Shown here piece by piece: positions 3,336 through 64,000 of a stretch of 64,000 bases of DNA. The notes below the pieces were generated by a model. That model saw nothing but the letters and a program-made list of their open reading frames with translations, did no database searches and was not told the DNA's origin. The DNA lies in IMG/VR virus record IMGVR_UViG_3300048999_000056, positions 48,819 to 112,818 of that record. The stretch is one strand, 5' to 3'. Both the position numbers and the translations under genes were made by a program. Position 1 is the stretch's first letter, and the number at the start of each line of letters is the position of its first letter. This stretch comes from a virus.

Positions 3336-4483
3336 GCGAGAAACCATGGGCGATCATCTGCCGGTTTGGCGGCGTCGGCGACAACCTGATTGTATCCTCC
3401 GTGCTGCCGCTGCTGGCGCGGAAATACAATGTCGAAGTTATCGCGCAGGCGCCGTTTCACGTCGTCTTCGAGAACAACCCGCACGTGGCGCGGTTGACAG
3501 TGCGCCAGCGCTCCGACCTGCCGAGCGATGCCATGCCCTGGCAACGCTGGTTTGACGACAGAGCGATCGGCGCCGACATGCTGGTCAACCTCTCGCATTC
3601 CTGCGAGTCCATGCTGTGCCTGTTTGAAAGCCAGACGCAGTATCGTTGGCCGGATGCATGGCGACGCCAGCACTGCGGGCGCAACTACTTGGAGCACACG
3701 CACGACATCGTCGGCGTGCCGCACGAGTTCGATCCGCGCTTCTATCCGACACGCGAAGAATGGCAACGTGCGGAGGAGGTTCGCCGGACAGTCGGCGGAC
3801 GCTATGTTGCGTGGTGCCTGTCCGGCACGCGCTACGACAAAATCTTCCCGTCAGCCCCGATCGCGATAGCGCGCATTATCAACGAACTGCAAATGCCTGT
3901 CGTGATGCTGGGTGCTCCTGGCAAGGATTCCGATCTCGGCAAGAGCATTCAGGAGCACGTCAAGAAGCACAACGGCACCGATCGCGGGCTGCATCTTGCG
4001 GTGTCTGCCGACGCGACGAAGACGGCGCCCGAGCTGCGCGATGCCTTGGGCCTGCGCGAGAACGTCGAGGCTTGGCCGATCAGGCGCGTGCTGACACAGA
4101 CCATGCTGGCTGATCTGGTGATATCGCCTGATACCGGTCCGGCGTGGGCAGTGGCCATGTCAGCAATGCCGAAGATCATACTGTTGAGCCACGCCTCGCC
4201 GGAGAACATCACGAAGCACTGGCGCAACACGGTGACGCTGCATGCTGATCAGCAGCGTGTGTCGTGCTGGCCGTGCCACAAGTTGCACGAAGGACCGCAC
4301 ACGTGCCGGCCGAACGCCGACAACAACGGCGCCTCGTGCATCAGTGACATCAGCGTGGAGACGATCGTGTCAACCGCTGATGCGTTGTTAACCCAAGAAA
4401 GGAAACCCGACCAATGGCAGGTATCTCAGCTTATCACGAAAAGCAGCTGCTGGACTTCGGACTGGGTGGTGCAGGCGCCGTAA
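3332..4483 (+). CDS. Glycosyltransferase family 9 (heptosyltransferase-like)
   Basis: RFGGVGDNL N-terminal motif and ADLVISPDTGP.W.A motif; C-terminal CWPC. Confidence 0.85.
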   Translation: MSEKPWAIICRFGGVGDNLIVSSVLPLLARKYNVEVIAQAPFHVVFENNPHVARLTVRQRSDLPSDAMPWQRWFDDRAIGADMLVNLSHSCESMLCLFESQTQYRWPDAWRRQHCGRNYLEHTHDIVGVPHEFDPRFYPTREEWQRAEEVRRTVGGRYVAWCLSGTRYDKIFPSAPIAIARIINELQMPVVMLGAPGKDSDLGKSIQEHVKKHNGTDRGLHLAVSADATKTAPELRDALGLRENVEAWPIRRVLTQTMLADLVISPDTGPAWAVAMSAMPKIILLSHASPENITKHWRNTVTLHADQQRVSCWPCHKLHEGPHTCRPNADNNGASCISDISVETIVSTADALLTQERKPDQWQVSQLITKSSCWTSDWVVQAP

Positions 4484-4818
4484 GCCAGCCCGCATCAGGC
4501 TCGCACGGTGTCGGACTGTCGCTTGGTGCGCCGACCTCGATTTCTGCATCCGAGATCGCAACCGGTTCCGGTTGGACACGTCAGCCGATCGGCTTCGCGG
4601 CGGCGGCGTCACCGGCCGGTTCGGCGTCGAACAACACCGCAGCGACATTCGGACCAGGGCTGACCGGTGCGACGTTCTCCGGTCTGCAAATCTTCGATGA
4701 TACGCGGTCCGGCACCGGCAACATGCTCTGGTATGGCAACCTCGCCACGCCGCGCACGCTGGGCGTCGGCGACAGCTTGGTGATCGCAACCGGTGCGTTG
4801 ACTATTACCCTCGCCTGA
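4414..4818 (+). CDS. Small virion/tail-fibre-associated structural protein
   Basis: SAY.E..LLD...EI..G.GW.RQ...SN....F...GN.L..G.L...GD....G.L.I.L pattern common in phage fibre modules. Confidence 0.65.
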   Translation: MAGISAYHEKQLLDFGLGGAGAVSQPASGSHGVGLSLGAPTSISASEIATGSGWTRQPIGFAAAASPAGSASNNTAATFGPGLTGATFSGLQIFDDTRSGTGNMLWYGNLATPRTLGVGDSLVIATGALTITLA

Positions 4819-4878
4819 TCTGTCGGGTGCAGTCCAACGGTCTGCACCCCACGGACTTCCTAAAGAGCGGCTTCGACA

Positions 4879-7800
4879 ATGGCGTGGTCCTTCGTCGGTG
4901 CCGGCGCTTTAGCGTCCGTCACCACCACAGCGATATCGGTAGCAGAGCCCGCTGGTGTACAAGCCGGCGATCTTCTTGTTGCGCTCATATCGCATCGTGC
5001 CGCGTCGGGTGCCGCTTCGGTGGTGCTGCCGACTGGTTGGACTCTCGTTACTGAGCAGAAGGTCGGCAACACCACCGCCGCCAGCACGTTAGGCATCGGC
5101 AACGGCGTCATGGCCTACCGGGTCGCGACCGGAGCCGGTGGGCCGTGGAGCTTCACGGTTCCGACCGCGAACGTTGCGCTCGGTCGCATTCTTGTCTACC
5201 GCGGTCAGGACAAGCTCGCGTCGCCACTGTGTATGACACGCAGCACGACGACGGCAACCGCCACGACGAGCATCAGCGTTACTGGCCTAACAACGCCGAA
5301 CGCCAACTGTCTGATCATTCACGGTCTATGCGGCGCACAGAATGGCGCGATGTCGGCATTCGACGCCGCGACCGATCCAACGACTGCTAGCGGCACGGGC
5401 GGTCAAACAGGCGCTCCAACTGCCGGGACATGGCTGGAGCGAACCGATGACGCTACCGCGAATGGTTCCGATTGTAGTCTGGCAATTGCAGACGCGGTTC
5501 GGGCCACGTCGGGCGCCACAGGCAATTTCACCGCGACGGCGGCGCTGGGTTGTGGCTACGCCTCGCTCGTCGGCGTGTTCAAACTCGACGTTGCAATCCC
5601 AGCCGGCCAACGGCTGGTCACGCATTACATCATCGGAACGGGAACCGGCAGCTTCACGCCGCCGTCCACCGTCAACGCGATCGTCGAAGTATGGGGCGCG
5701 GGCGCCACTGGAAACACCGCGAGCGGCGTGGGCGGTAACGGTGCTGGTTGGTCACGGGATAGTAGCTACGCGCTAACAGCGGCAACGCCGGTCAACTTTT
5801 CGCTCGGTGCTCCCGGCGCGACCTCTGCGGCGGCCGGTGGCGATACTTGGTGGGCAACATCCGGCACGCTGATAGCGAACGGCGGCGGGTCCGCTACCGC
5901 GCGGATCGGCGACGTGACGTTTGTCGGTGGCGTGGCGAGCACCAACTCTGCCACCGGTAACACCGGGGGCGGTGGCGCAGCCGGTCCGTATGGACCTGGG
6001 CGAGCCTCTGGCAGTGCTGGCAGTGGTGGCGGAACGGGTGGCGGTGGTAACGGCGGCGGCACCGACTCAACAGCTTCCGCAACGGCAGCTGGCACCGCTG
6101 GCGGCAATGGTTTCGCTGGAACGGGCGGCGCTGCTGGCGTTGCAAATGGTAATGGTTCGCCGGGCGGTCCGGGCGCGGGCGGTGGCGGTGGCGGTAACAC
6201 GACAGGTCAAGGCGCTCGCGGTGGTGATGATTGGAGCAACGGCGGCGGCGGTGCGGGTGGCACAGGCAGCCTCGCCAATCATCCTACAACGGCGGTCGGC
6301 GGCACGCCGGGTGCTGGCGGTGCGGCGGCAAATGCGGCACTTGGGCGCGGCGGTTACAGCCTCGTCAAACTCAGCTATGTTGGGACCGACGATGACAGCC
6401 TGACAGTTGTCGGCTCGCTGTCGAACATCGTCTTCGCGCGACCGGGTGCAGCTCATATTGCCGGCACCGGCTCGATATCGGCCAATGCAACAGTCGTCAG
6501 TGGCGGTCCGACTACTTGGCAAGGGACTGCAACATTTGCTGGCGTAGCGTCGGTTAGTGCTGTCACTGCCTACGTCAAACCGCAACAATGGGACATCGGC
6601 AACTACTATCATCCCAACGTCACGCTGTCGGGCACGGGCGGAAACTTTACCGCGCTGCAGACGGGGAGCAGCGGCAACCGTGCATCGGTGGTTGCGACTG
6701 AGTTTTTCAATACCGGCAAATACTACTGGGAACTGCAGATCGATTCCACTGGCGGCGGTCAGTATGTCGGACTGGCGCGTGCAGCGTTCGATCCCAACGG
6801 CTTCGATTCCGCCTTGTATGCGACTGAGGTTACGTGGTGGACCTTTACCGCTGACTCATCCGGTCATATAGTTGCTGCTAACGTCGAGATCAGCGCCGGG
6901 GCACCGTTCTACACGACTGGCGATCGTGTCCAGTTTGCCTGGGATGCTACCAATCATCTGATATGGCTTAGAGTCAACAATGGCTCTTGGGCGAACGGCG
7001 GTGATCCGGCAGCCGGGACCAACGGTTACGATATCTCGTCCGTGACGGGACCTCTCGCTCCGGCGATCTCGCTGGGCGGCACGAATGATCAGATATCAAC
7101 CAAGTTCGATCGTGCCTCGTGGTCCGGCACGGCGCCAGCCGGTTTCGCTCAATTCGACCCTGTCATTCTACAGGGAACTGCAACGCTAGCCGGCACGGGC
7201 TCGCGGACCTTTAACGCCACGCACACACCGGCAGGCACAGCAACAATTGGCGGTGCCGGTTTGCTTAGCGTCTCTGCGCGGATCATTGACCGGATCGACC
7301 CTGTCACGCTGGCAGGTATCGGCTCAATTACTGCAAACGCTACGCATACGCCGGCAGGCACAGCCGTTTTCGCCGGTCTAGGTTCGTTAACTGTTGACGC
7401 AACTGTTGTTCTCGGCACTGTCACGTGGCAGGGCTCGGCAACGTTTGCAGGCGTCGGCACGCTCAGTGTCAATGCGACGCACACGCCAGCCGGACAGGCG
7501 ACGATCAACGGCGCCGGTTCGCTTGCTGTCACTGCGACGCTGATCGATGCTATAGACGCTCTTACGCTGCCAGGTGCCGGCTCTCTCAGCGTCAACGCCA
7601 CGCATACGCCGGCTGCGGCTGCGACGTTTGCCGGTATCGGCTCGGTCACGCTCAATGCGACTTTGACTGCTCCGGTCACGGCGAATATCAACGGCACCGG
7701 ATCGGTCACTGCCAATGCTACGCACACGCCGGCTGCGACGGCATCGCTCAACGGTGTCGGATCGATAGCAGCAACCGCGACGGTCATCGCTCGTGCCTCA

Positions 7801-9225
7801 ACAACCTTGGCCGGAACAGGCGGGATATCGGCGACGGCGACGGCGATAGAGCAAGCCTCGTCAACGATCGGCGGCACAGGCACCGTCACGATCTTCGTCG
7901 TCGAAGGCGAGCTAGGTATGGCGTCGCTCGCGGGTGTCGGCTCGCTTACGATAGACGCCACGCACACCCCGATCGGCACGGCGACCTTCAACGGCATAGG
8001 CACGCTGGCGACGGCTTCCGCGGTGCTGGCAGGCGGTTCGGCGATGCTGGGCGGCATCGGTGCGGTTTCGGTCGCGGGGGCTGCCCAGGCCGCTGCCAGC
8101 GCTGCCCTGAGTGGCATTGGCACGCTAACCGTCAGCGGCATTTCGGCGTCTCAGGGAACGGCGGCGTTTGGCGGTGCCGGCTCGATCTCGGCGAGCGCCA
8201 CGCATACGCCGGCCGGACAGGCGACGATAGGCGGCACGGGATCGGTGACGCTCAGCGCCCGCGTGGCGGCGATCAGCTCCGCGACGCTGGCCGGTGTTGG
8301 TTCCGTCACAGTCACAGCGACGGCGATCGAGCAGGCTGCCGCGACAATCAACGGCGTAGGCTCGGTTGCGGCTGACGGGCTGATCCGTGGTCGGATCGAC
8401 GCAGCGGCAACGCTAGGCGGCACGGGTGCTGTCACGGCAACCGCGACGATTATCGAGCGCGCTACCTCTGCGATCAGCGGTAGCGGCTTGCTCGCGGTCA
8501 ACGCAACGCATACCGGTCAAGCTGCCGCGGCGATCGGCGGAACGGGTGCCCTGGTAGTCAACGCGGTCCATACGCCGCAAGGCGCTGCGGCACTGCACGG
8601 CATTGGTTCGATTACTGTTGCGGCAACGCATACGCCGAATGGCAGCGCCTCGATCTCAGGCGCCGGTGTGTTGACAGTGAGCGCCAGTCTGCGCCTGCCG
8701 GCGATTGCGTCAATCGGCGGCGTCGCTTCGTTTACAGCGATGGCGGATCATACTGCACAAGGCGCTGCGACGTTCGACGGCATCGGCACTCTGACGGTTG
8801 ACGAAAGTCTCGCGCTGGCGACGGGCGCCGATCTTGCGGGCGCAGGCGATGTCACTGTCGAGGCATCGCTGATCGTTCAAGCTGCCGTCGATCTGGTCGG
8901 AACCGGCGCTCTGTCGGTTGACGGTAGCGTATTCAGTCCTGAGCCGGGCTCGGTCACACTTTCCGGTATCGGGTCTGTCACGATCAACACGCGGCTTGTT
9001 GCGGCGATACACGCGACGATCGGCGGTCAAGGCATCCTGGCTGCCGACGCGGTTGTTGTGACGAGTATCCTGCCGCCGCCGGAGCGGGAAATCCACGTTG
9101 TCGGGCAGTCTCGTGTCGTGACAGACAGCCGCGATCGATCGCTTACGGTTGCGCCTAGTCAACGTGCTGCGTCGGGCGAATACAGCCGACTGATCTCCGA
9201 TCGGCGCGGCGGAAGGAGGATATGA
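4879..9225 (+). CDS. Giant fibre-like virion protein (Gly-rich domain, SPRY-like domain, about 30 x 20-aa beta repeats)
   Basis: 1448 aa; VEVWGAG...GGGG glycine-rich domain; GKYYWE...VG.A...TGD.V..A.D SPRY-like segment; repeats like GTATFAGVGSLSVNATHTPA from about 7170 to 9060. Confidence 0.75.
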   Translation: MAWSFVGAGALASVTTTAISVAEPAGVQAGDLLVALISHRAASGAASVVLPTGWTLVTEQKVGNTTAASTLGIGNGVMAYRVATGAGGPWSFTVPTANVALGRILVYRGQDKLASPLCMTRSTTTATATTSISVTGLTTPNANCLIIHGLCGAQNGAMSAFDAATDPTTASGTGGQTGAPTAGTWLERTDDATANGSDCSLAIADAVRATSGATGNFTATAALGCGYASLVGVFKLDVAIPAGQRLVTHYIIGTGTGSFTPPSTVNAIVEVWGAGATGNTASGVGGNGAGWSRDSSYALTAATPVNFSLGAPGATSAAAGGDTWWATSGTLIANGGGSATARIGDVTFVGGVASTNSATGNTGGGGAAGPYGPGRASGSAGSGGGTGGGGNGGGTDSTASATAAGTAGGNGFAGTGGAAGVANGNGSPGGPGAGGGGGGNTTGQGARGGDDWSNGGGGAGGTGSLANHPTTAVGGTPGAGGAAANAALGRGGYSLVKLSYVGTDDDSLTVVGSLSNIVFARPGAAHIAGTGSISANATVVSGGPTTWQGTATFAGVASVSAVTAYVKPQQWDIGNYYHPNVTLSGTGGNFTALQTGSSGNRASVVATEFFNTGKYYWELQIDSTGGGQYVGLARAAFDPNGFDSALYATEVTWWTFTADSSGHIVAANVEISAGAPFYTTGDRVQFAWDATNHLIWLRVNNGSWANGGDPAAGTNGYDISSVTGPLAPAISLGGTNDQISTKFDRASWSGTAPAGFAQFDPVILQGTATLAGTGSRTFNATHTPAGTATIGGAGLLSVSARIIDRIDPVTLAGIGSITANATHTPAGTAVFAGLGSLTVDATVVLGTVTWQGSATFAGVGTLSVNATHTPAGQATINGAGSLAVTATLIDAIDALTLPGAGSLSVNATHTPAAAATFAGIGSVTLNATLTAPVTANINGTGSVTANATHTPAATASLNGVGSIAATATVIARASTTLAGTGGISATATAIEQASSTIGGTGTVTIFVVEGELGMASLAGVGSLTIDATHTPIGTATFNGIGTLATASAVLAGGSAMLGGIGAVSVAGAAQAAASAALSGIGTLTVSGISASQGTAAFGGAGSISASATHTPAGQATIGGTGSVTLSARVAAISSATLAGVGSVTVTATAIEQAAATINGVGSVAADGLIRGRIDAAATLGGTGAVTATATIIERATSAISGSGLLAVNATHTGQAAAAIGGTGALVVNAVHTPQGAAALHGIGSITVAATHTPNGSASISGAGVLTVSASLRLPAIASIGGVASFTAMADHTAQGAATFDGIGTLTVDESLALATGADLAGAGDVTVEASLIVQAAVDLVGTGALSVDGSVFSPEPGSVTLSGIGSVTINTRLVAAIHATIGGQGILAADAVVVTSILPPPEREIHVVGQSRVVTDSRDRSLTVAPSQRAASGEYSRLISDRRGGRRI

Positions 9226-11981: not shown

Positions 11982-12437
11982 ATGGCAATTCTCAACGCAA
12001 CAGCCGGCATATCAGGTGTCGGCAGGCTGACGGCAATCGCTGCGGCAAAGGAAACAGCGACGGCGGTCCTGTCGGGCAATGCCAGCGTATTTGTCAACGC
12101 TGTCAATGCGCTGCATCTGGCGAGCCCGCCAAACTATCCGATTCCGCCGCAGGCGGATGACGCTGCGCCTGTCTTTCTTGTCGATCCGGCAACCGGTGCC
12201 GCAGTCGGCGCAACAGGACCGTACGCAAACGCACTGCCGGTGACGCCGGCCGATGTCGGCTCACTGCCGGCAACCACGCGTGCGTTGTGGATCGGCGGTG
12301 CCGGTAACGTGACGGTTGACACTCTTGGCGGACAGACAGTCACGCTGACCGCAGTGGCAGCAGGAACATTGCTGCCACTGCAAGTCTCGCGTGTCCGTGC
12401 GGCGACAACGGCGACGTTGGTCGTCGCGTTGTGGTGA
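11982..12437 (+). CDS. Head spike base protein, RcGTA Rcc01079-like, with N-terminal extension
   Basis: VTP.D...L...TRALWIG..G.V.V....G..VT...V..G.LLP..V.RV......VALW. Confidence 0.7.
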   Translation: MAILNATAGISGVGRLTAIAAAKETATAVLSGNASVFVNAVNALHLASPPNYPIPPQADDAAPVFLVDPATGAAVGATGPYANALPVTPADVGSLPATTRALWIGGAGNVTVDTLGGQTVTLTAVAAGTLLPLQVSRVRAATTATLVVALW

Positions 12438-12438
12438 T

Positions 12439-13445
12439 GCCTGCGCTGACGGGTCGCACCCTGCCGCGCCTAACCGTGTCGGGCGATGCCTGCCAAGCCC
12501 TGACAATCCACGTCTTGCGTTGCCGTGCCGTGCCGGGCCTGCCGGGTCAAGCCGGGACCTTCCGAGCGTTGCGATGCCGCGTCTGCCCCGCCATGACATG
12601 CCTTGCCGTTGCGAGCGTAGCCTTGCCTGCGCTGTCTTGCCGTGACGGACCTAGCCGCGCTCTGCCCTGTCGAGCCTGCCATGCCATGCCCTGACGATCT
12701 ATGCCATCCCGAGCCGAGCCTAGCCAGCCACGTCAAGCCGTGCCTTGACACGTCTTTCCAAGCCTAGCCGAGCCGAGTCTGCGTTGACCTGCCAATCGAT
12801 ACCTCGCCGTGCCAAGCCGCGTCTGCCCTGCCTCGGCCTGCCGAACGATACCATGCCCTGCAGACCCATGCCTGCGATGCCGGAACGTGCCCTGCGCTCT
12901 CGTGCCACGTCACCACGTACCCTGCCTGCGCCGCCTCAACGCGTCCTACCGAGCCAAGCCGAGACAAGCCTGCGATGCGGCGCCTAGCCTCGCCTCGACG
13001 GATGTCGCCTCGCCTAGCCTGCGTTGCCACAACCAGCCCCCCGAGATCAGGCGAACCCAGCGTGTCCAAGCCTGCCACGCGCCGCCCGGACTGCCCTTGC
13101 CTATCGGTGTCGCCCCGAGCCGGCCGCGCCCTGCCTCGCCCAGTCTCGTCCTGCCAGGACGTGCCTTGCCTGCCCCGTCGTGACGTGCCCAGCGCGGCGT
13201 AGCCGAGCCTGCCATGCCATGACCGGTCTAGTCCCGCCTAACCATAGCGGGCCGCGCCTGCCCCGCCATCCGGGCGTCGCCTTGCCGAGCCTTGTCGAAC
13301 CATGCCTGCGACGCCTTGCCACGGCGTTACGCGTCTAGCCGCACCTTGCCGAGCCTGCGACGCGATGCCTTGCCAAGCCACGTCGCAACCCGCCAAGCCT
13401 GCGTTGCCATCCCTCGAATTGCCCAGCCAACGCTAACCCTGCCCT
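12439..13445 (-). repeat. Array 1: 21 units of (NN-GGC)7-10 + AGGC; candidate guide-RNA array of the adjacent RAMP protein
   Basis: + strand GCCTGC-type boundaries at 12439,12488,12537,12581,12625,12674,12723,12777,12821,12870,12924,12968,13017,13070,13119,13168,13207,13256,13304,13353,13397; 18 of 20 intervals equal 5n+4; interior is GCC-NN pentamers. Confidence 0.9.
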
Positions 13446-13458
13446 GTACACAAGGCGA

Positions 13459-13474
13459 GGCGGCCGAAGCCGCC
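13459..13474 (-). promoter_or_regulatory. C(UUCG)G tetraloop hairpin in leader of array 1
   Basis: - strand GGCGGC-TTCG-GCCGCC, 13 nt upstream of first array pentamer. Confidence 0.7.
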
Positions 13475-13499
13475 CCGTTAGTGTTAGATATTATGACTG

Positions 13500-14021
13500 C
13501 TACTGTCTGCGGCGCTTTCGCCCTGCCTTGCGGTCGGGGCCTTTGCGTGCTGGCGACTTCACCGTGCCACCTTCCAGCTGATCCTGCCGGCGCCGCTCCA
13601 GTTCGGCAATCCGCTGGCCTTCATCGAACAGGCGCGACATTTCGGTCAACCGCTGATACTTGATATGGAAGCGGTTGAAGTCATCTAGCGCGTCCTTCAA
13701 CATGACGCGCCGCAAGTCACGATCGGGCAGAATGCGATCAAGCGGACGATAACCGCCGCCCGCGTGACGATCGATACTCAACGAGATCATGGTGCGCTGC
13801 CCGGTATCGTCAACAACATGAATGGCAATCAGGCGGCGTATCTGGTCGAGCCGATAGCGGTATCCTGCCTTGGCGTCTTCCCATTCGAGTTCTTCATGCA
13901 GTGCCGAGCTGGGATGCGTAGCAGCCCAGTCGTGCACCACCTTGACGTAGAGATTGCCATCGGGATCGAGCCGGCGCAGCGCCTCCAGTTCCTGCTGGAT
14001 GCGCGCCGTGGATTCAAGCAT
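13500..14021 (-). CDS. Conserved phage protein associated with RAMP/array locus
   Basis: GGAGG RBS before ATG 14021; ELEAL....G.L....V..WA...P.S.LH..LEW.D..A...YRL.Q.R.LI motif; basic C-terminal tail. Confidence 0.75.
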   Translation of the reverse strand: MLESTARIQQELEALRRLDPDGNLYVKVVHDWAATHPSSALHEELEWEDAKAGYRYRLDQIRRLIAIHVVDDTGQRTMISLSIDRHAGGGYRPLDRILPDRDLRRVMLKDALDDFNRFHIKYQRLTEMSRLFDEGQRIAELERRRQDQLEGGTVKSPARKGPDRKAGRKRRRQ

Positions 14022-14262
14022 TGTTCGGCCTCCTGGTTGAACGCGCGGCCCAGCCGATAGCGTTCGCCAGATCGCCTTTTTCCATTGCCAGCTCATACTT
14101 GTTGAGTGCGAGCATGTGTTGCGTGAACTTGCGCTCGCGCCGTGCCCATGTGCCAATACGCCGCTTCCTCCGAGGCGGCGTTTCCTGCAATGCTTTCTCC
14201 TTCAGCGCCTCTTGTGCGAGGCGCTGCCCTTCACGGGTTATGTTTTTCAACCGGCTAAGCAT
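14014..14262 (-). CDS. Small basic helical protein, translationally coupled in RAMP operon
   Basis: 82 aa; 8-nt overlaps with both neighbouring genes. Confidence 0.6.
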   Translation of the reverse strand: MLSRLKNITREGQRLAQEALKEKALQETPPRRKRRIGTWARRERKFTQHMLALNKYELAMEKGDLANAIGWAARSTRRPNNA

Positions 14263-15265
14263 TGCTGTTGACTACGTCCCACAAGCCCCAGTCCAGACCG
14301 TTGGAGTTCGGCGAGGAGGGCCGCCCCTCGCCGACGCCGACCTGCATACCGGCAATCGCCATCAGGTTGACCACGTCGGTTGCCGAGAACTGCCGCGCGT
14401 CCCAGCGGACGGTCACGGCGGCGTTCCACTTTTCCCACATAGGCCGGTGGCGGATATCGGCAACGCCTGATGCGTTGCGGGCTGGCGCCTCGTGCAGCCG
14501 TGGCGTGCCGTTGATCTTGACGAGCGGCTGCCCATCCTGATCGAGTCCGTCCGGCACGATGAACAACGACAGCTTGGCGCGTGTCATCGTGAAGCCGGCA
14601 AGGCGGCACGCGTCAATCATCGCGTTGCGGAAAGCCGGCGCCGGAATGCCGTGCCATCCGTCACGCGCGATATGCTGCGCCAGACGGTAGATTTCTTCGA
14701 AGTCCTTCGGCTCGCGACGGCGGCGTGACTTTTCGCCCTGCGAACCCGCCTTCTGCCGCTCCACCATCATGTTGACGGCTTTCTGGCTGAATTTGTGTTG
14801 CACGTAAGGCGTAGAGCCTCTGATGTAGACGATGCCGCGATCGAACTGCGGCGGTTGAATGACGACGCGCGTCACCTTGCCGCTCAACACGCCAACCGTG
14901 CCTTGCTCCATGGTGCTGTCGAGCGTTTCGATCGGGATCGGCGAGGCGGGTATCCTGCCGAAATTGTCGGTGTTGCGCATTGACGGCCCGGCTACTGCAC
15001 CCTTGCCGTTCTTGCCCTTGCCGTTCCGACCGATCGTCGCCTCACGTTCCGCCAGCAGGTCCGCAACCGGATTGCCGCCAGCGTGCGCCGCCTCGAATGC
15101 GGCTTTCTGCTGTCTCTCGTCGCGTGACATAGGTCCGCGCTTGCCGGGCTCGCGTGCCCAAACGGCCGGCTCAACGTCTTCGACTGCGGGAGCTGTCCCC
15201 CTCTGCGCCAGCTTCTTGGCCTTCAATGCCTTCTTGGCGCTTTTCTTGTCCTTCAACGTCGTCAT
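14255..15265 (-). CDS. Stand-alone Cas7/RAMP-superfamily-like protein
   Basis: IVYIRGSTPYVQH (first RRM strand), GIPAPAFRNAMIDAC (IPxSSxKGxxR-like), C-terminal G-loop GVGEGRP....GLDWGLWDV; RBS GAGGGA before ATG 15265. Confidence 0.75.
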   Translation of the reverse strand: MTTLKDKKSAKKALKAKKLAQRGTAPAVEDVEPAVWAREPGKRGPMSRDERQQKAAFEAAHAGGNPVADLLAEREATIGRNGKGKNGKGAVAGPSMRNTDNFGRIPASPIPIETLDSTMEQGTVGVLSGKVTRVVIQPPQFDRGIVYIRGSTPYVQHKFSQKAVNMMVERQKAGSQGEKSRRRREPKDFEEIYRLAQHIARDGWHGIPAPAFRNAMIDACRLAGFTMTRAKLSLFIVPDGLDQDGQPLVKINGTPRLHEAPARNASGVADIRHRPMWEKWNAAVTVRWDARQFSATDVVNLMAIAGMQVGVGEGRPSSPNSNGLDWGLWDVVNSNA

Positions 15266-15319
15266 GTCGTTTTCCCTCATGTATGCGATGGGCGCGGCTT
15301 TTATTGCCCGCCATCCTAT

Positions 15320-15345
15320 ATATACAAAACGCCTATTCGTGTTGA
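15320..15345 (-). promoter_or_regulatory. Phage promoter motif TCAACACG-N12-GTATAT upstream of RAMP operon
   Basis: Same bipartite motif recurs at 18073-18099 and 22926-22953 upstream of - strand genes. Confidence 0.65.
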
Positions 15346-20940: not shown

Positions 20941-21261
20941 TCAGAAATTTCCGTTGATTACGTCGCTGGATTGTAAGCGCCGCCATCCAACCGTATCACA
21001 ATAATATATACGATCCTGATCGAGCGCCACAATGTCTGCCATCGACATTGAGTAACTATTGAAGTTTCTCGGGTGCGCCGTGTTGAAGATCAGATACAGC
21101 CATTTCAACGCGTCGTCATCGGTGCTGCTATGCTCCTCTGCGATAATACCGTTGAACGTGTCGCGGTAGTCGCACCGATCGATCTTGCGGCGTGGATTGA
21201 ACGGGCGGAACGCGACCTCGCATATGCGCCCGATGCGAACCTGATATAGCGTGAACTTCAT
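20941..21261 (-). CDS. YodL-like domain protein
   Basis: LYQ...L..LY..FN..HP..F..YSMSM.DIV....YYCD.VGW. Confidence 0.75.
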   Translation of the reverse strand: MKFTLYQVRIGRICEVAFRPFNPRRKIDRCDYRDTFNGIIAEEHSSTDDDALKWLYLIFNTAHPRNFNSYSMSMADIVALDQDRIYYCDTVGWRRLQSSDVINGNF

Positions 21262-22887: not shown

Positions 22888-22925
22888 GGTCTGTTTCCTT
22901 TCCGTGATTCATTCGGCTATCAGAT

Positions 22926-22953
22926 ATATACAAAAGCCGCTAGTCCGTGTTGA
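22926..22953 (-). promoter_or_regulatory. Phage promoter motif TCAACACG-N14-GTATAT
   Basis: Recurrent bipartite motif. Confidence 0.6.
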
Positions 22954-26325: not shown

Positions 26326-27762
26326 TCACTTGCCGTGCTCGGCTTCGTCTGTCTCCTCGGTCTGCTCTTCTGCGGGTTGTTTTCCGGTGACACGGTCCAG
26401 CTCACTTTCTGTTGCCTGATCCATATATACGCTCGATAGGTGGAATTGCCCAGTGACGTAGGATTGCGAGATAAGCACGCGGAACTTATCCTCCTCGTCA
26501 CGTGCGGCATCAACGAGGATACGCGCGAGGCCCATCTTGCGTTCCTCGTCGGTGCGGTTGAACGTCAGTACGGTATCAGCTGTGCCGACCTTGCTCCAAT
26601 CCTCCGACACGCCTTTCGAGCCGAATAGCTTGGCGCCCTCGGTCGCTCGATTGCCCTGCGTCGGCGCGCACAACGCCATGTCACGCCGTACGCACAGACC
26701 GCGCAATTGCTGATACAGCCGCCCGGTGTCGATCCGCAGATTGTCGGCATTGATCGACATGAGATCGGGATAATCGATGATCAGCAGGTCGGGCACGAAG
26801 TTCTCTTCGCGCGCAAGCATGTCGAGATAGGCATCGAGCTGCGGAACTGTCAACGCTCCTGTCGGCCATCCTTTGATCAACAGGCGCGGACGCAAGCCGA
26901 ATGACTGCAGCCGGCGGACGATCTCCTGCTTGCTGGCGGTCATCAGGCCCATCGCCTGATACTCGTGCAATGTGATCATGCCGGACAGCCTGCCGGTCTG
27001 CGGATCACGCGACAGCTTGGGCAACTGCACGGTCTGTGCCTCGCGCTTGGTCCAGGCATTGAACGCTTGTACATACCGGCGCTTCGTCAGTTTCTCCGAG
27101 TTCTCCAATGTCATGTGCAACGTCGTATGCCCATCGCGGAAATTGGCCTTGCCGAGATTGACGCACCACCAACTTTTGCCTGCCTTCTTGGGAGCAATGA
27201 ACAACGTAAACGTGCCGCGCTCCGGGCGGATGCCGCGTATGTCCAGTTCTTCCACACCGGACGAGAACCGCTCGCCGCTGGTCTGTTCAACGAAACTGAG
27301 ATCGGTATCGTGCAGCCACGTGCCGCGCGTCATGCGCGAACGGAACGCCGGTTGCCCCCAAATCAGCTCGTCAGCCTTTGTCTCGTCACCGGCCTGCAAT
27401 ACCTCCAACGCGTTCTCCAGCGCATTCATCTTGGATTGCCGCCGCATCCAGTCGTCGAGGCCGCCAATGACGAAATTTGGATCGAGATCGGCCTGCACGC
27501 GTTGCGTCTCGTCAATTATGGACGCCATGAACTTGCCTTCGCTGCGCTTCAGCTCGTTCTCCATCACGTCGCGGATATGCCCCTGCGGTGCGTGCCTGTA
27601 ATCAACGATGAACTTGATTGCGGCTTCCGCTATGCGTTGAAAGGCTCTGGTGCTGAATATCTCCGGCTCCAAGATCGATGCGAGCATGCTTGCGTGCTCG
27701 TTGTTCCAGATCAACAGGGTGATAACGTTTTCCTCGGCAGTGCCTTGCAGTTGATTAGCCAT
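26326..27762 (-). CDS. DnaB-like replicative helicase
   Basis: Walker A APKKAGKS, TLEN, IIDYPD, TQ.NR; start MANQLQG at 27762. Confidence 0.85.
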   Translation of the reverse strand: MANQLQGTAEENVITLLIWNNEHASMLASILEPEIFSTRAFQRIAEAAIKFIVDYRHAPQGHIRDVMENELKRSEGKFMASIIDETQRVQADLDPNFVIGGLDDWMRRQSKMNALENALEVLQAGDETKADELIWGQPAFRSRMTRGTWLHDTDLSFVEQTSGERFSSGVEELDIRGIRPERGTFTLFIAPKKAGKSWWCVNLGKANFRDGHTTLHMTLENSEKLTKRRYVQAFNAWTKREAQTVQLPKLSRDPQTGRLSGMITLHEYQAMGLMTASKQEIVRRLQSFGLRPRLLIKGWPTGALTVPQLDAYLDMLAREENFVPDLLIIDYPDLMSINADNLRIDTGRLYQQLRGLCVRRDMALCAPTQGNRATEGAKLFGSKGVSEDWSKVGTADTVLTFNRTDEERKMGLARILVDAARDEEDKFRVLISQSYVTGQFHLSSVYMDQATESELDRVTGKQPAEEQTEETDEAEHGK

Positions 27763-28318
27763 TGCTGCGCTCGTCGTTGCTGTTGTGAAATTCGCCAAAT
27801 AGCTGCCGTGCTGCTTGTTCGTAAGCTGCTGCGGCATCCTCGGGTGTCTTGAAGTATCCCAACGACTTGCGTTTGCCGTTGATATTTATGTACGCGATCC
27901 ATCTAGGTGGTAGCTTCGGGCGATGCTTACCATTGTAGCGAGCCACTCCTCGGTATCCAGAAGTGTTATTAGCATGGCGACGGCGGTTCTGCATGTTCTG
28001 CGAGTGGGTAGCCTCTCGCAGATTGTCGTGTTTGTCGTTGATTGCGTTTCGATTCCGGTGATCGATCTCCTGTCTCGGAAACCGCCCGGTTGTGAGCGCC
28101 CATATGATATGTGAAGCTAGGTAGTTCTTGCCTGCAATCTTCACTAAGCGATAGCCATTGCGATTTATACATCCGGCGAGCATGCCTCCTCGTACGCGAC
28201 CGTGAAGTCCTTTTCGCCATCGTAGAATGCCTGTAGATGGGTCGTACATAAACAGCGACCGTAAGATTTCAACGGCATCCGATTCTAGATTAGCAACGCC
28301 AGTAAGCTGTTGCGGCAT
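27755..28318 (-). CDS. HNH-AP2 homing endonuclease
   Basis: YDP.TG...EIDH.NRN..N...NLREAT.SQN..N; NNTSGYRGV...W.A.I.....LGYF...EDAA.AY (AP2). Confidence 0.9.
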   Translation of the reverse strand: MPQQLTGVANLESDAVEILRSLFMYDPSTGILRWRKGLHGRVRGGMLAGCINRNGYRLVKIAGKNYLASHIIWALTTGRFPRQEIDHRNRNAINDKHDNLREATHSQNMQNRRRHANNTSGYRGVARYNGKHRPKLPPRWIAYININGKRKSLGYFKTPEDAAAAYEQAARQLFGEFHNSNDERSNG

Positions 28319-28350
28319 ATAGACTTCTCCGTTTGCTCTTGGTCCTAATG

Positions 28351-30144
28351 CTACCGAAGACGGTTGATCGACGTTCCCTCTTGCTCCCGTGTGCACACCC
28401 AAACTTCATCGAATGGGAATGTCATTGAGCGGTGGTCCAGCAACCAGACGGCACGTGCACTCTGTTCCGTGCGGTCCTGCAGGCACGTCAACAAATCATC
28501 GATGCCCTCCGGTGACAGCCAAGCCGTCGGTTCATCGAATACCTCTACCGAGTGATATACGCCGGCCATGTTCTGTATCAGGGAAGCCAGTCCGAAACTC
28601 ACTGCCAGCTTGACGCGTTGCGCCTCGCCGAACGAGTAGGACTTGTATGTGCCCTGCCCGAGCGCGTTGACGGCGTGCACGTGGATACCGGGTGAACGCG
28701 TGCCGGACTCGATCTCATAGCGGATGCGCCATGCCCCGATGCCGAGCTGTGCGGCTGCCGATGCCGTCTCGATCTCCAGCAATGCCAGGATGCGGCGGAT
28801 CAGGAACAGCCGGACCAACCGAAAACCGCGCTTCCAGTAGTCAACCTTGATCTGATCCTCGGCCAGCGTCTCGATCGCAAATTGCAGGCTCTGGACGGTT
28901 TCGGCGAGCTGGTCAGCCTGCTGGCGGACCGACGCGATACGGTCTGCCAGGGGCGCTGCCTGGCTGCCACGCTGGGCTTCCTCCAGCCGCTGGCGGGCTT
29001 GTGCCAGACCGCGCTGGCAGGCTGCCACGTCGGCCCGTGCGGCGGTCTGTTCGTGCTCGCATCGCACGCGCGCTTCACGGGCTTTCTTGGCTTCGACTTC
29101 TACCTCCACCATGACCCTACCGGCATCGCGCCAGTCGCGCTCCAGGTGGTCGAGTTTTACGCCCGTATCGTCAGCCTGTAATTCGAGTTCTCGCATCCGA
29201 CGTTGCGCGAACACCTGATCGATCCGTTGCTTGCACGTTGGGCATGACTTGTGGTCGCGCAGGAAGTCGCTGTCTCCGAGGATGTCCTTATGCCGGAATG
29301 CCGCCTGCGTGTGATCGGTGCGGATGACTTCGATAATGTCCTGCAGCTCGCGTAACTGCAGATCGATGTCCTGTTCCGCCTGCTGCCTCGCCGTCAATGC
29401 CTGAGCAATGCCACGGGCACGCTGTTCGGCAGCACGCAATGCGTTGTCGGCCTGCACATAGTCATTCTTCAAGCCTTCCTCTGCGCGCGCATGATAGTCC
29501 TGCCATTCGGCTTGTGTCGCCGTGAGTTCCTGCAACAGTTTGTCGAGCCCGCTCGCGCGGCCTGCCTCGTGGGACTTGGTATTGTTGAGTTCGCTCAGGC
29601 TCTTCGTCATTTTCGCCGACTGCTCGCCGGCAAAGTCTGACAATTTCAGCCAGACGCCCAGTCCCATGATCTCGTCCATCAACGCGCTACGTTCTGGTAT
29701 CGACAGGTCCATGAACAGCGGCGCCGACTGGCCGAAGATCACCGAATGCACGAAGCGCAACCGCGTCATGCCCATCAGCGCATCGACGGCAGCCTGCGGC
29801 ACCGGCTCATTGTTCAACAGTAGCGTATCAGGCGAACCGGTGCGATCGATGATTTGCGTTTCACCGTCAACATTATACTGCGCGATGACATGCGGACGTT
29901 GCTTGAGTTCCCACGTGGCGAGGTCCGACGCGCGCTCGCCTCGGATCGAGGTCCCATAAAGGCACCACGTCAACGCATCCCACAACGATGACTTGCCGCT
30001 GCCGTTCGATCCGAGCGCGGGCTCGACCTTGTTGATTCCAGTGATGAAGCGGAACCCGCCCTCGGTCGGAAATTCGATCCGTGTCTCCTGGCTGAAGCAA
30101 CGAAACGCGGTGATCGTCATTGCCTCCAGCACGATCAGCCGCAT
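28351..30144 (-). CDS. SbcC/Rad50-like ATPase (gp46-like)
   Basis: SNGSGKSS Walker A, coiled coil with CPTC hook, S.GE signature, VFDEP. Confidence 0.9.
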   Translation of the reverse strand: MRLIVLEAMTITAFRCFSQETRIEFPTEGGFRFITGINKVEPALGSNGSGKSSLWDALTWCLYGTSIRGERASDLATWELKQRPHVIAQYNVDGETQIIDRTGSPDTLLLNNEPVPQAAVDALMGMTRLRFVHSVIFGQSAPLFMDLSIPERSALMDEIMGLGVWLKLSDFAGEQSAKMTKSLSELNNTKSHEAGRASGLDKLLQELTATQAEWQDYHARAEEGLKNDYVQADNALRAAEQRARGIAQALTARQQAEQDIDLQLRELQDIIEVIRTDHTQAAFRHKDILGDSDFLRDHKSCPTCKQRIDQVFAQRRMRELELQADDTGVKLDHLERDWRDAGRVMVEVEVEAKKAREARVRCEHEQTAARADVAACQRGLAQARQRLEEAQRGSQAAPLADRIASVRQQADQLAETVQSLQFAIETLAEDQIKVDYWKRGFRLVRLFLIRRILALLEIETASAAAQLGIGAWRIRYEIESGTRSPGIHVHAVNALGQGTYKSYSFGEAQRVKLAVSFGLASLIQNMAGVYHSVEVFDEPTAWLSPEGIDDLLTCLQDRTEQSARAVWLLDHRSMTFPFDEVWVCTREQEGTSINRLR

Positions 30145-34841: not shown

Positions 34842-34888
34842 CTTGGTTCTGCCTTTGAATTGGTAGCTTCCCTACCCCCTATATACGA

Positions 34889-38397: not shown

Positions 38398-38452
38398 AGA
38401 CACCCTCCTGATTTGGTAGCCTCTCAGAAGGGATATACGAAACGCCGAAAAA

Positions 38453-39081
38453 GCCTGCGCTGCCGCTGCCCGCCCTGCCTTGCCGAACCGGGTCATGCCA
38501 AGCCAGCCCTGCCGGTCCGAGTGCTGCCCTGGCTAGCGTAGACCTGCCACGCCGGCCATGCCCTGCCTTGCCTTCCCGGACGTGCCGAGCGTGGCCTGCC
38601 ATGCCGAGCGTTGACCTATCTTGCCGCCCTGGCCGTTCCGAGCCAAGCCTGCCGATCCGCGTCGATCCGCGCCAAACCTAGCCGCGCCTGCCACGTCTCG
38701 CCACGGCGGGCGGGTCGATGCCATCCCGCGCCATGCCCGCCATGTCAAGCCTTTACGTGCCCTGCCTAGCCGATACGAGCGGTGCCTGCGTTGCCGAACG
38801 TTTGCATGCCCCGTCTAGCCAATACAGGTCGCGCCTGCGTTGCCAAATCGCACCCCGTCTAGCCGACACAAGCCCCGCCTGCGATACCGAGCCATACGCA
38901 GACTGGCCTAGCCGTGCCCTGACGAGCCTGCCCCGATCAGACCTCGTCGGTCCATGCCTAGCCGAGCGCAGCCTGCGTTGACGATCCGCGTCTTGCCCGG
39001 TCAACCCGTGCCATGCCTAGACCACCACGCCTGCCAAGCGTTGCCGATACGAGCGCTTCCTTGCCGGGCCGAGCCGCGCCT
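38453..39081 (-). repeat. Array 2: 13 units with same GGC-NN/AGGC grammar as array 1 (orphan)
   Basis: Boundaries at 38453,38502,38551,38594,38647,38686,38735,38784,38833,38877,38926,38971,39029 plus terminal GCCT 39078; lengths 49,49,43,53,39,49,49,49,44,49,45,58,49. Confidence 0.9.
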
Positions 39082-39094
39082 GATTCCTATATAC

Positions 39095-53946: not shown

Positions 53947-54054
53947 ATAGCGGTCAGCGGACCAAAGCGCAAGTATCGTTACGTTCTCCCCTATCCCTTA
54001 TATACCTTATCGAGCCTCCAACTACCGAAACTGCCGAACCGCTGATCGTATATC

Positions 54055-56115: not shown

Positions 56116-56173
56116 TTCGGGTGAATCGTATATATGGATCAGAGCCACGAAAAACACGAAGGGGGCGATTGCC

Positions 56174-57617: not shown

Positions 57618-57704
57618 AAAACCATTTCGGTATATATAAGATGGCAAGCGAAAATTCGCTGCCTGTCTTTTCGACAAAAGGCATCATGCGTATCGTAAGG
57701 AGAC

Positions 57705-61357: not shown

Positions 61358-62164
61358 ATGGCGAGATCGAGCTATGCGAGAAAGGCGGTGGGGCCGGTGA
61401 TCAGAATGACACCTGATCCGTTCGCTCAGTTGCTCGACGCGCTGCAACAGGTCGTCAATGACGCGAAGATCGGCGCGCTCAAGGCAACGGCGAACGCCAC
61501 ACGCGTAGAGGGCGAACCGCCACGCGTAGACATGCAAGCCGTTCAACGATTCATGGCGGAGCGAGGAATGTCAGAAACAGGTAGAGGCCATTACTACTGG
61601 GTGCGTGTGCGAGGCAACCCGGCTCCTATGATCGGTATGCGTAGCCAGATTTCAGGCGCTTGGTATATATCAGGTGTGGCGGGCGGATATGCCGATGCTG
61701 ATATCGAAGTCATCCGCTCGGTCGAACCATTCGAGCAACCGATGGCTGACTACTGTGCCGCGACAGGTATAGTTGATAAGCCGCCGAAAACACCGCATGA
61801 TCCGCTGAAAGGGCACACGCTGTTGCTGGTCAAGACTTCTAGCGGTTACTCATATTCGGTGCAACCCGAGCGCGCAATGGAAACGGCGATGAAGCTGGCG
61901 CAGACAGAGCCGGTTTACATACTTGACGGTCATACCCGGGAGATTCTCGTGTCGCTGGGAAAAGGGCAAACGATGATCAACAATCCGATCCCCGATGACG
62001 TGCTGGAAGCGATGGCGGACGCGATGCTCGATCCGCCGCTGCGGATTCCGGGCAAGGTGCCGAACGCGGAGGGCAACAAGGTCCGCACGCGCGCCCTGTC
62101 TCGTGCGCTCGCAGCGGCGGAAGAACTCGGCTGGGTGATGGTCAAGGCGGAAACGCGGGAATGA
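61358..62164 (+). CDS. Hypothetical protein (start uncertain)
   Basis: Long ORF in + strand gene run. Confidence 0.45.
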   Translation: MARSSYARKAVGPVIRMTPDPFAQLLDALQQVVNDAKIGALKATANATRVEGEPPRVDMQAVQRFMAERGMSETGRGHYYWVRVRGNPAPMIGMRSQISGAWYISGVAGGYADADIEVIRSVEPFEQPMADYCAATGIVDKPPKTPHDPLKGHTLLLVKTSSGYSYSVQPERAMETAMKLAQTEPVYILDGHTREILVSLGKGQTMINNPIPDDVLEAMADAMLDPPLRIPGKVPNAEGNKVRTRALSRALAAAEELGWVMVKAETRE

Positions 62165-63519: not shown

Positions 63520-64000
63520 TGGACCTCTACTGCGCCGGAGGGCGGCAAGCGCCTGTCGTATGGCGAGCTGCCGCACATTCTGCATCCCGGCGATACCTTG
63601 AACCTGCATCTTTGACCGCCTCGCCTGAGCGCTGAGCACGACAAGAAAGCCAGGGTTATCAAGCTGCCCAACGGTGCTTGACTGGCTTCCCCTGTTACCC
63701 GTAGTCTCTCCCCCGACTTAGCCGAGCCTGTGGCCCTCCAGGGTGGTATCGTCTGGCACCACCTGGAGTGCGGTAGCTACCGCCTTGTGCACATGCTTCG
63801 TCGAAGTCTCCTGGTACGCAAACAGCCTTTCAACCTGCATCATCAACACGAATGGTGATGCAGGTTTTTTGTTGATATAAGTAGTAGCGTCGAACCAAAT
63901 GGCGAGTTGAAATGTCCGGTTGCTGGTATTGCGTACAGTCACGCCCACGTCGCGAGTTCATGGCGCGGTCACACCTCAACAGACAAGGCTTCAACACGTT

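What the first reader, a model, noticed from the sequence alone, without database searches (positions are those of the whole stretch)
12439..13445. Array 1 has a two-level grammar: 5-nt words inside 5n+4-nt units
Parsed by hand on +, each unit is GCCT (variants GTCT, GCCA, GCCG) followed by 7-10 pentamers with a GCC-like triplet and a free dinucleotide, e.g. 12723: gcca gccAC gtcAA gccGT gccTT gacAC gtcTT tccAA gccTA gccGA gccGA. Intervals are 49,49,44,44,49,49,54,44,49,54,44,49,53,49,49,39,49,48,49,44, so 18 of 20 are exactly 5n+4. All 21 NN strings differ, so this is information-bearing rather than a homogenised satellite. The pentamer next to the boundary always starts GC and is GCG in 10 of 21 units (RNA 3' end ...CGC-AGGC), suggesting a processing or capping signal. 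A period of 5 is incompatible with codon structure.
Basis: seen in the sequence. Interest (0 to 1): 0.92.

Follow-up and report, generated by a model that had tools for sequence, protein, structure and literature searches.

The report
Phage VIPR guide-RNA array (staggered)
The 1-kb tract is real and non-coding: it is a head-to-tail array of about 21 guide RNAs for VIPR, a CRISPR-related RNA-guided DNA-silencing system of phages first described in 2026 preprints, so it is a new member of a known kind and not a new kind of element.

Summary
Window 12439-13445 has a strong 5-nt period (lag-5 identity 0.47 against 0.29 in shuffles, z 13). The register slips by exactly -1 about every 49 nt. Variability sits in two of every five positions.

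On the minus strand the tract reads (NN-GGC)x7-10 followed by AGGC. That matches the vrRNA of VIPR systems (bioRxiv 10.64898/2026.04.26.720920). The 5n+4 spacing matches that paper's 'staggered arrays', in which adjacent vrRNAs overlap by 1 nt (fig. S18).

Just upstream and co-directional lie two genes:
- A Vipr homologue at 14255-15262(-). Its fold is Cas7/Csm3-like (Z 10.1). hhalign against the tested SUSP1 Vipr gives E 4e-6.
- A small partner gene that is conserved in 65 of 80 related loci.

Co-directional arrays accompany the vipr gene in 76 of 80 viral and 44 of 50 bacterial loci.

The 113-kb phage carries five such arrays with at least 76 different guides. The published one-base-skip rule gets independent support in this clade: 10 near-perfect hits against about 2 in controls. 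One of those hits is a perfect, codon-phased match of another phage's guide to this genome.

Targets of this window's own guides were not found, and no RNA data were available. This scan has already logged VIPR in at least 74 other genomes.

The parts
12439..13445 (-). vrRNA array D. It holds about 21-23 head-to-tail guide units. Each unit is 7-10 NN-GGC pentamers closed by a 4-nt word (AGGC in most).
   Evidence: The grammar matches VIPR staggered arrays.
13455..13478 (-). Stable GC hairpin with a UUCG loop, lying between the partner gene and the array. No T-run follows it.
   Evidence: -25.7 kcal/mol, z -3.4. Its role (RNA end or stability element) is inferred only.
13500..14021 (-). Candidate vap (vipr-accessory) gene of about 173 aa. 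The ORF is open up to 14156.
   Evidence: It is conserved immediately downstream of vipr in 65 of 80 related viral loci. Its only family match is phrog_15946, of unknown function. The predicted fold is helical, with no informative structural match. It is not homologous to SUSP1 vap1.
14255..15262 (-). vipr gene (336 aa). The RAMP core spans residues about 136-336. The N-terminal ~130 aa are a basic, low-confidence extension that most homologues lack.
   Evidence: More than 864 homologues, mostly 205-260 aa. In the AF2 model the core has pLDDT above 90. The top 25 hits of the wide PDB comparison are all RAMPs; best is Csm3 9g9a_D, Z 10.1, rmsd 4.1 A, 146 aligned residues. The Foldseek list is likewise almost entirely Cas7-family chains, E 2e-4. 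hhalign against SUSP1 Vipr gives 86.8% probability and E 4e-6, with the G-loops aligned.
15319..15325 (-). Promoter-like motif GTATATA, about 57 nt upstream of the vipr start codon.
   Evidence: The motif occurs 14 times in the genome, against roughly 4 expected from base composition (my own estimate). Its strand follows gene orientation, except for three copies (two at arrays B and C, one unexplained).
38445..39085 (-). vrRNA array E, with about 10-13 units of the same grammar. It lies between a 164-aa ORF and the DNA polymerase A gene.
39088..39094 (-). Promoter-like motif GGTATATA directly at the RNA-sense 5' edge of array E.
   Evidence: The same motif sits at the 5' edge of arrays A, B and C, which lie outside the window.
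63737..63762 (+). Site in this phage that perfectly matches (18 of 18 bases) a guide of another VIPR-carrying phage (G001, 138 kb) under the one-base-skip rule.
   Evidence: The skipped bases fall on the wobble positions of the 76-aa ORF at 63718-63948(-). My rough estimate of the expected number of perfect chance hits is about 0.002.

Best explanation
The tract is the guide-RNA array of a VIPR system.

Transcription (inferred). It is read on the minus strand, probably together with vipr (14255-15262) and the small partner gene (13500-14021), from the GTATATA motif at 15319-15325.

The RNA. The transcript is a chain of about 21 vrRNAs. In each, the GGC triplets are the scaffold. In the published structures one Vipr protomer sits on each GGY-NN repeat, forming a helical filament. 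The two free bases of each repeat are the guide letters.

Target reading. By the published rule the 8-10 dinucleotides pair with double-stranded DNA that reads NN-x-NN-x..., that is, codon positions 1-2 with the wobble base skipped. Binding silences transcription of a rival mobile element.

Unit boundaries. Adjacent guides share one nucleotide: the G of ...CGC-AG is the first G of the next GGC. This is why unit lengths are 5n+4, and why there is no tail, hairpin or ribozyme between units.

Shown here: the grammar, the Vipr homology and fold, the conserved vipr / partner gene / array layout across more than 100 loci, and clade-level support for the skip rule.

Inferred: transcription, processing at the junction, binding and silencing. 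The targets of these particular guides are unknown.
For: - Grammar and entropy.
- Literature defining VIPR, vrRNAs of YNNGG repeats, staggered 1-nt-overlap arrays, one protomer per repeat and the 1-nt skip.
- Vipr fold: the top hits are RAMPs, Z up to 10.1 (rmsd 4.1 A, 146 aligned).
- Homology to the tested protein: hhalign against SUSP1 Vipr gives E 4e-6, with GVGEGRP aligned to its G-loop GVGDWRP.
- Layout: co-directional GGY-NN arrays lie next to vipr homologues in 76 of 80 viral loci and 44 of 50 bacterial-genome loci of at least 3.5 kb.
- Partner gene: conserved in 65 of 80 loci.
- Skip-rule test: 513 guides were searched against 1.17 Mb of related phage DNA. Hits with at most 1 mismatch numbered 10 at skip 1, 0 at skip 0 and 1 at skip 2. 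Twelve shuffles gave 1-5, mean 2.25.
- Codon phase: 9 guides hit vipr genes of other phages with at most 2 mismatches, against about 1.9 expected. Five of the 7 same-strand hits are in codon phase.
- A perfect, phased hit of a G001 guide on this genome.
Against: - No target was found for any of this genome's own guides. The searches covered its own genome, 80 related loci, three complete VIPR phages, 63 bacterial loci and two PolA relatives. Six exact-pattern scans of public collections with the 10-12-repeat guides also found nothing.
- No RNA evidence is available.
- The VIPR paper states that staggered arrays were not among the architectures confirmed by small-RNA sequencing.
- The G-loop tryptophan that stacks on G2 in SUSP1 Vipr (W178) aligns with glycine in this clade.
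- The partner gene has no recognisable DNA-binding fold.
Confidence: 0.9

Rival explanations
1. The arrays are decoy or hijacking guides rather than the phage's own weapons. They would load a rival phage's Vipr and send it to harmless sites, as described for satellite-borne solo vrRNAs.
For: Paper 10.64898/2026.10.15.759431 describes solo vrRNAs with this role. Four of the five arrays in this genome (A, B, C, E) lie far from vipr and have their own promoter-like motif. No targets were found for any guide.
Against: Array D sits directly behind vipr and its partner gene, in the layout conserved across more than 100 loci. This is the normal position of a system's own guides. The rival is in any case a variant of the same family, not a different kind of element.
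Confidence: 0.05
2. The tract acts as DNA: a lattice of GCC sites every 5 bp for a DNA-binding protein involved in packaging, partition, replication or nucleoid structure.
For: Four of the five arrays share one DNA orientation. Arrays B and C lie antisense to their neighbouring genes, which at first suggested a function independent of transcription.
Against: The orientation is explained by a promoter-like motif at the RNA-sense 5' edge of each array. The association with a co-directional RAMP gene is near-universal. The free dinucleotides are hypervariable, which a binding lattice does not need. Guides of relatives match coding DNA in codon phase.
Confidence: 0.03
3. The tract is a non-functional microsatellite-like expansion, or it is a translated low-complexity ORF.
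For: Long ORFs are open across the tract on both strands. In Mycobacterium phage Donkeykong the homologous tract is annotated as a gene.
Against: There is no period-3 signal. Slippage would homogenise the units, yet all 76 differ. Register changes are always -1 and occur at a conserved junction. The ORFs are open only because GCC-NN words rarely spell stop codons.
Confidence: 0.02

Closest known systems
VIPR systems with staggered vrRNA arrays (bioRxiv 10.64898/2026.04.26.720920, fig. S18)
   Same: Both have a Vipr RAMP gene plus a partner gene plus an array of GGY-NN pentamers. Neighbouring guides overlap by one nucleotide, which gives the 5n+4 spacing seen here. Both are phage-borne.
   Different: I could only read the figure legend, not the figure or the type tables, so the VIPR type (I-VII) of this clade is not assigned. 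This genome has five dispersed arrays with at least 76 guides (about 4% of the genome). Two arrays lie antisense inside the structural-gene block. Its Vipr has a basic N-terminal extension of about 130 aa.
Type II VIPR of Escherichia phage SUSP1 (experimentally characterised; cryo-EM in 10.64898/2026.04.26.720927)
   Same: The Vipr proteins are homologous (hhalign E 4e-6). Both use a pentamer code of conserved GGY and free NN. In both, the vipr and partner genes are flanked by guide RNAs.
   Different: SUSP1 has four separate vrRNAs of about 100 nt, built of GGT-NN repeats, each ending in a conserved ~40-nt tail with a pseudoknot. Here the repeats are GGC-NN, there is no tail, and units abut. 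The partner gene is unrelated to vap1. The G-loop Trp is replaced by Gly.
Cas7-family backbone subunits of type III, I and IV CRISPR effectors (Csm3, Cmr4, Cas7)
   Same: The fold is the same (Z 8-10), with a glycine-rich loop near the C-terminus. In both, one subunit binds per fixed-length RNA segment.
   Different: There are no CRISPR repeats or spacers and no cas genes among the neighbours examined. The period is 5 nt of RNA with 2 paired bases, against 6 nt with 5 paired bases in CRISPR.
Arrays and vipr homologues of cluster F mycobacteriophages (Cheoctovirus, e.g. Donkeykong gp49), some Gordonia phages and cyanophage Cy-LDV1
   Same: The Vipr subfamily is the same (39-53% identity). In the cluster F phages read here the tracts follow the same GCC-NN / GCCT grammar.
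   Different: In cluster F the array is 200-350 nt and lies upstream of vipr in the early lytic operon. In some records it is annotated as a protein-coding gene.

Membership tests
VIPR system | A Vipr protein: a minimal RAMP with an RRM core, a glycine-rich loop and a thumb. | tested here: met
   The AF2 model core has pLDDT above 90. The top structural matches are Csm3, Cmr4 and Cas7; best Z 10.1, rmsd 4.1 A, 146 aligned residues. hhalign against SUSP1 Vipr gives 86.8% probability and E 4e-6 over 165 columns, including the G-loop. The G-x-G-E-G-R motif is invariant in 34 homologues. The thumb was not inspected separately.
VIPR system | vrRNA made of tandem YNNGG (GGY-NN) pentamers, with GGY conserved and NN hypervariable. 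| tested here: met
   Across 693 pentamers the NN entropy is 1.89 and 1.97 bits, against 0.84-1.23 bits for GGC. Units hold 7-10 pentamers, most often 9.
VIPR system | The guide array lies in the intergenic DNA flanking vipr, on the same strand. | tested here: met
   Array D starts 55 nt after the partner gene's stop codon, on the vipr strand. The same layout occurs in 76 of 80 viral and 44 of 50 bacterial loci.
VIPR system | A vipr-accessory (vap) gene in a two-gene operon. | tested here: inconclusive
   A partner gene of about 150-170 aa is conserved next to vipr in 65 of 80 loci. It is not homologous to SUSP1 vap1, and its helical fold gave no informative match. Which of vap1-6 it is, if any, could not be determined.
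VIPR system | Guides recognise DNA by the one-nucleotide-skip rule. | tested here: inconclusive
   The rule is supported at clade level. Hits with at most 1 mismatch: 10 at skip 1, 0 at skip 0, 1 at skip 2, and 1-5 in shuffles. There are also codon-phased hits in vipr genes and a perfect hit on this genome. For this window's own guides no target was found.
VIPR system | vrRNAs are expressed, cut to unit length and bound by Vipr. | not testable with these tools
VIPR staggered-array architecture | Adjacent vrRNAs overlap by 1 nt, with no spacer element between them. | tested here: met
   All register changes in array D are 4-nt words, i.e. a -1 slip. The junction consensus is (C/G)GC-A-GGC. There are no Rfam families, including ribozymes, in the window.
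Type II VIPR (SUSP1-like) | A conserved ~40-nt 3' tail with a pseudoknot after each repeat tract, and a vap1 partner. | tested here: not met
   Units abut without tails, unlike the SUSP1 locus read. The partner gene is unrelated to vap1.
CRISPR-Cas | Identical direct repeats of about 25-40 nt separated by unique spacers, with cas1/cas2 or effector cas genes. | tested here: not met
   Tandem Repeats Finder sees only 5- and 10-nt periods in the tract. The neighbouring genes have no Cas families in Pfam or PHROGs. The padloc and ncbifam libraries were not searched.

The most novel reading that the evidence does not exclude
In staggered arrays the one-base register slip may itself be the punctuation. 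Each Vipr filament needs GGY every 5 nt, so the 4-nt junction word would end one filament and seed the next. Either a long unprocessed transcript would carry many independent filaments, or Vipr (a RAMP, like Cas6) would cut at the conserved GC-A-GGC junction itself. No dedicated nuclease, tail or ribozyme would then be needed. That would be a simpler way of making guide RNAs than any known for CRISPR or for type II VIPR.
Probability: 0.2. Interest if true: 0.6.

Novelty: new member of a known kind. Interest (0 to 1): 0.38.

Why it matters
This tract gives a clean, large natural example of the least-studied VIPR architecture: staggered arrays, which the describing paper did not confirm by RNA sequencing. 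It offers 76 distinct guides in five separately promoted arrays, and a junction consensus that can be mutated.

The cross-phage matches are an independent computational check of the published one-base-skip code, made in a clade far from the E. coli and Pseudomonas systems on which the code was established.

The same Vipr subfamily and array grammar occur in cultured cluster F mycobacteriophages. Staggered-type arrays could therefore be tested in Mycobacterium smegmatis without working on an uncultured phage.

As a discovery, however, it is not new. The system was published in 2026, and this scan has already met it in at least 74 other genomes.

Tried and rejected
- Near-identity and distant DNA searches against cultured phages. 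There was no relative of the locus. The array itself hit only mycobacteriophage arrays of the same grammar.
- Pfam and PHROGs on the neighbours: uninformative.
- Rfam on the whole window: no family. The sigma-70 and terminator scan was at chance level.
- RNA folding of a 300-nt stretch of the array: z -1.3, so it is not a structured RNA.
- Targets of this genome's guides under the skip rule. There was no excess in its own genome, near related vipr loci, in three complete VIPR phages, in 63 bacterial loci or in two PolA relatives.
- Five exact-pattern scans of viral contigs and one of genome contigs, using guides of 10-12 repeats: zero matches.
Within 4 kb of each array there were 9 hits at 4 mismatches, against 8.2 in shuffles, so it is rejected here.
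- The partner-gene structure gave only generic helical-hairpin matches, Z 6.7 or lower.
- A metagenome scan for close relatives of this Vipr, meant to compare unit gain and loss, found none.
As a result, neither the second contig bearing the identical Vipr nor any expression data could be examined.
- My early ideas were dropped once the RAMP gene and the literature were found: a TRAP-like ring-protein binding site, a rut site or Rho trap, Chi-like sites, G-quadruplex tracts, and bent DNA.

Full report
**What is there.**
Window 12439-13445 is a 1,007-nt intergenic tract. It lies between the last plus-strand tail-fibre-like gene (ends at 12437) and a block of minus-strand genes.

Base identity at lag 5 is 0.471, against 0.295 +/- 0.013 in shuffles (z 13.2). 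The autocorrelation maximum drifts from 5n to 5n-1 with distance and peaks at lag 49 (0.503, z 14.7). There is no period-3 signal.

I parsed the minus strand with a dynamic-programming segmentation that allowed words of 3-7 nt. The tract resolves into NN-GGC pentamers interrupted only by 4-nt words: AGGC in most cases, otherwise AGAC, TGGC, CGGC or GGGC. The two exceptions (53 and 48) are double slips, 19+34 and 9+39.

Entropy is 1.89 and 1.97 bits at the two free positions and 0.84-1.23 bits at GGC. No two units share an NN string.

The junction (C/G)GC-A-GGC is the most conserved element, at 1.8-1.9 bits per position.

**The rest of the genome.**
The window belongs to a 112,818-bp virus record with 59.7% G+C. 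The same grammar occurs five times:
- A: genome 3.5-5.5 kb, just after terL, with GGC on the plus strand.
- B: genome 27.83-28.33 kb.
- C: genome 29.89-30.11 kb.
- D: this finding.
- E: window 38445-39085.

Together the arrays hold 76 clean units (34, 8, 3, 21 and 10) in roughly 4.4-4.9 kb.

A motif GTATATA occurs 14 times, and its strand follows gene orientation. It lies directly at the RNA-sense 5' edge of arrays A, B, C and E, and about 57 nt upstream of the vipr start. This motif explains why B and C can be antisense to the neck and tail genes around them. Their transcription from it is inferred, not shown.

**What it is.**
A full-text search led to bioRxiv 10.64898/2026.04.26.720920 and two companion preprints. 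They describe VIPR systems as follows:
- The protein is a small RAMP called Vipr.
- The guides are vrRNAs of 9-16 YNNGG repeats. GGY is conserved and NN is hypervariable.
- The NN dinucleotides pair with double-stranded DNA while skipping every third target base.
- One protomer binds per repeat.

The paper also lists 'staggered arrays with overlapping vrRNAs', in which individual vrRNAs derive from 1-nt overlapping positions. Read in the GGY-NN frame, each unit here ends ...CGC-AG, and the next begins with that same G (GGC-NN...). This is exactly a 1-nt overlap, and it yields 5n+4 spacing.

**The protein.**
The ORF at 14255-15262(-) has more than 864 homologues, mostly 205-260 aa. A G-x-G-E-G-R loop near the C-terminus is invariant among them.

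The AlphaFold model has a confident core at residues 136-336. Its best structural matches are Cas7-family subunits:
- Csm3 9g9a_D: Z 10.1, rmsd 4.1 A, 146 aligned residues.
- Cmr-beta 6s6b_I: Z 9.6.
- Csm3 6ae2_B: Z 9.4.

The top 25 rows of that search are all RAMPs, and the Foldseek list is almost entirely the same family.

A profile of the family aligns to the experimentally characterised SUSP1 Vipr (NC_028808 28474-29061) with 86.8% probability and E 4e-6. The G-loops are in register: GVGEGRP against GVGDWRP. The SUSP1 Trp that stacks on G2 aligns with Gly here.

The first ~130 residues are a Lys/Arg-rich, poorly modelled extension, shared only with the closest relatives.

**The layout is conserved.**
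Of 80 viral contigs encoding a homologue, 76 carry a co-directional period-5 GGY array, usually starting about 450 nt after the vipr stop codon. Of 50 bacterial-genome loci of at least 3.5 kb, 44 do.

The gene between vipr and the array (here 13500-14021) is conserved in 65 of 80 loci. It is unrelated to SUSP1 vap1, and its helical model gave no informative match.

Other complete phages of this clade also have several dispersed arrays.

The bacterial assemblies carrying homologues are labelled Alphaproteobacteria, Planctomycetota, Verrucomicrobiota, Cyanobacteria, Gemmatimonadota, Bacteroidota and others. The closest are Aestuariivirga, Vineibacter and Bradyrhizobium. The host of this phage is not known.

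**Does the code hold here?**
I took 513 guides of at least 8 repeats from this genome and its relatives and searched them against 1.17 Mb of related phage DNA. Hits with at most 1 mismatch numbered 10 under the 1-nt skip, 0 under no skip, 1 under a 2-nt skip, and 1-5 (mean 2.25) in twelve shuffles of dinucleotide order.

Nine guides hit vipr genes of other phages with at most 2 mismatches, against about 1.9 expected. Five of the 7 same-strand hits are in codon phase.

One guide of a 138-kb phage (G001) matches this genome perfectly (18 of 18) at window 63737-63762. The skipped bases fall on wobble positions of a 76-aa ORF. I estimate about 0.002 such hits by chance.

So the clade appears to use the published code against related phages, and this phage is itself a target.

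**What was not found.**
None of this genome's 76 guides could be given a target. No RNA data could be obtained.

The array RNA is not unusually structured (z -1.3). A stable UUCG hairpin separates the partner gene from the array. No Rfam family is present.

**Verdict.**

The element is a VIPR staggered vrRNA array with its vipr and partner genes. It is a new member of a kind published in 2026 and already met many times in this scan. It is not type II.

Its points of interest are the size and dispersal of the guide repertoire, the tail-less 1-nt-overlap punctuation with a strongly conserved junction, and the link to cultured mycobacteriophages in which this could be tested.

Noticed in passing
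G000 3500-5500, 27829-28330 and 29889-30110 (L001, L002); window 38445-39085: There are four more arrays of the same grammar in this genome, with no vipr gene beside them. B and C lie antisense between head-tail connector genes. A follows terL. E precedes the DNA polymerase gene.
   Followed up: yes
window 15319-15325, 21005-21011, 22925-22931, 26424-26430, 34880-34886, 39088-39094, 53999-54005 (all minus strand); window 56128-56134, 57630-57636, 61663-61669 (plus strand); also G000 3513, 28336, 30125 and 44722: The motif GTATATA, often preceded about 15-20 nt upstream by GTTCAACA or GTGAAAAAC, occurs 14 times, and its strand follows gene orientation. It looks like a phage promoter and heads four of the five arrays.
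   Followed up: partly
L004 2970-3330 and L004 2243-2989 (Mycobacterium phage Donkeykong); L005 (Brocalys); Cluster F mycobacteriophages (27 records), five Gordonia phage records and cyanophage Cy-LDV1 encode this Vipr subfamily (hhalign E 5e-26 for Donkeykong gp49). The cluster F phages carry a 200-350-nt GCC-NN/GCCT array just upstream. In Donkeykong the array is annotated as protein-coding gene 48, which is probably wrong.
   Followed up: partly
L075 3604-3640: One guide, with the ORDER of its dinucleotides reversed, matches perfectly and in codon phase the most conserved Vipr motif (N-E-T-G-V-A-D-I) in four other phages. It matches its own vipr with one mismatch. This order does not fit the published antiparallel rule. 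My rough chance estimate is 0.004, and the match is unexplained.
   Followed up: partly
window 63718-63948 (-): A small 76-aa ORF of unknown family is the site matched perfectly by a guide of the 138-kb phage G001. It is a candidate target gene in inter-phage conflict.
   Followed up: partly
window 35848-38400 (-): The family A DNA polymerase has an N-terminal uracil-DNA-glycosylase-superfamily domain (Pfam UDG, E 5e-13).
   Followed up: no
window 4879-9225 (+): A 1,448-aa ORF in the tail region carries a SPRY domain (E 1e-6).
   Followed up: no
window 14861-15262 (-): The Vipr has a Lys/Arg-rich, low-confidence N-terminal extension of about 130 aa. It is shared only with its closest homologues (P0004, P0007); most family members lack it.
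   Followed up: partly
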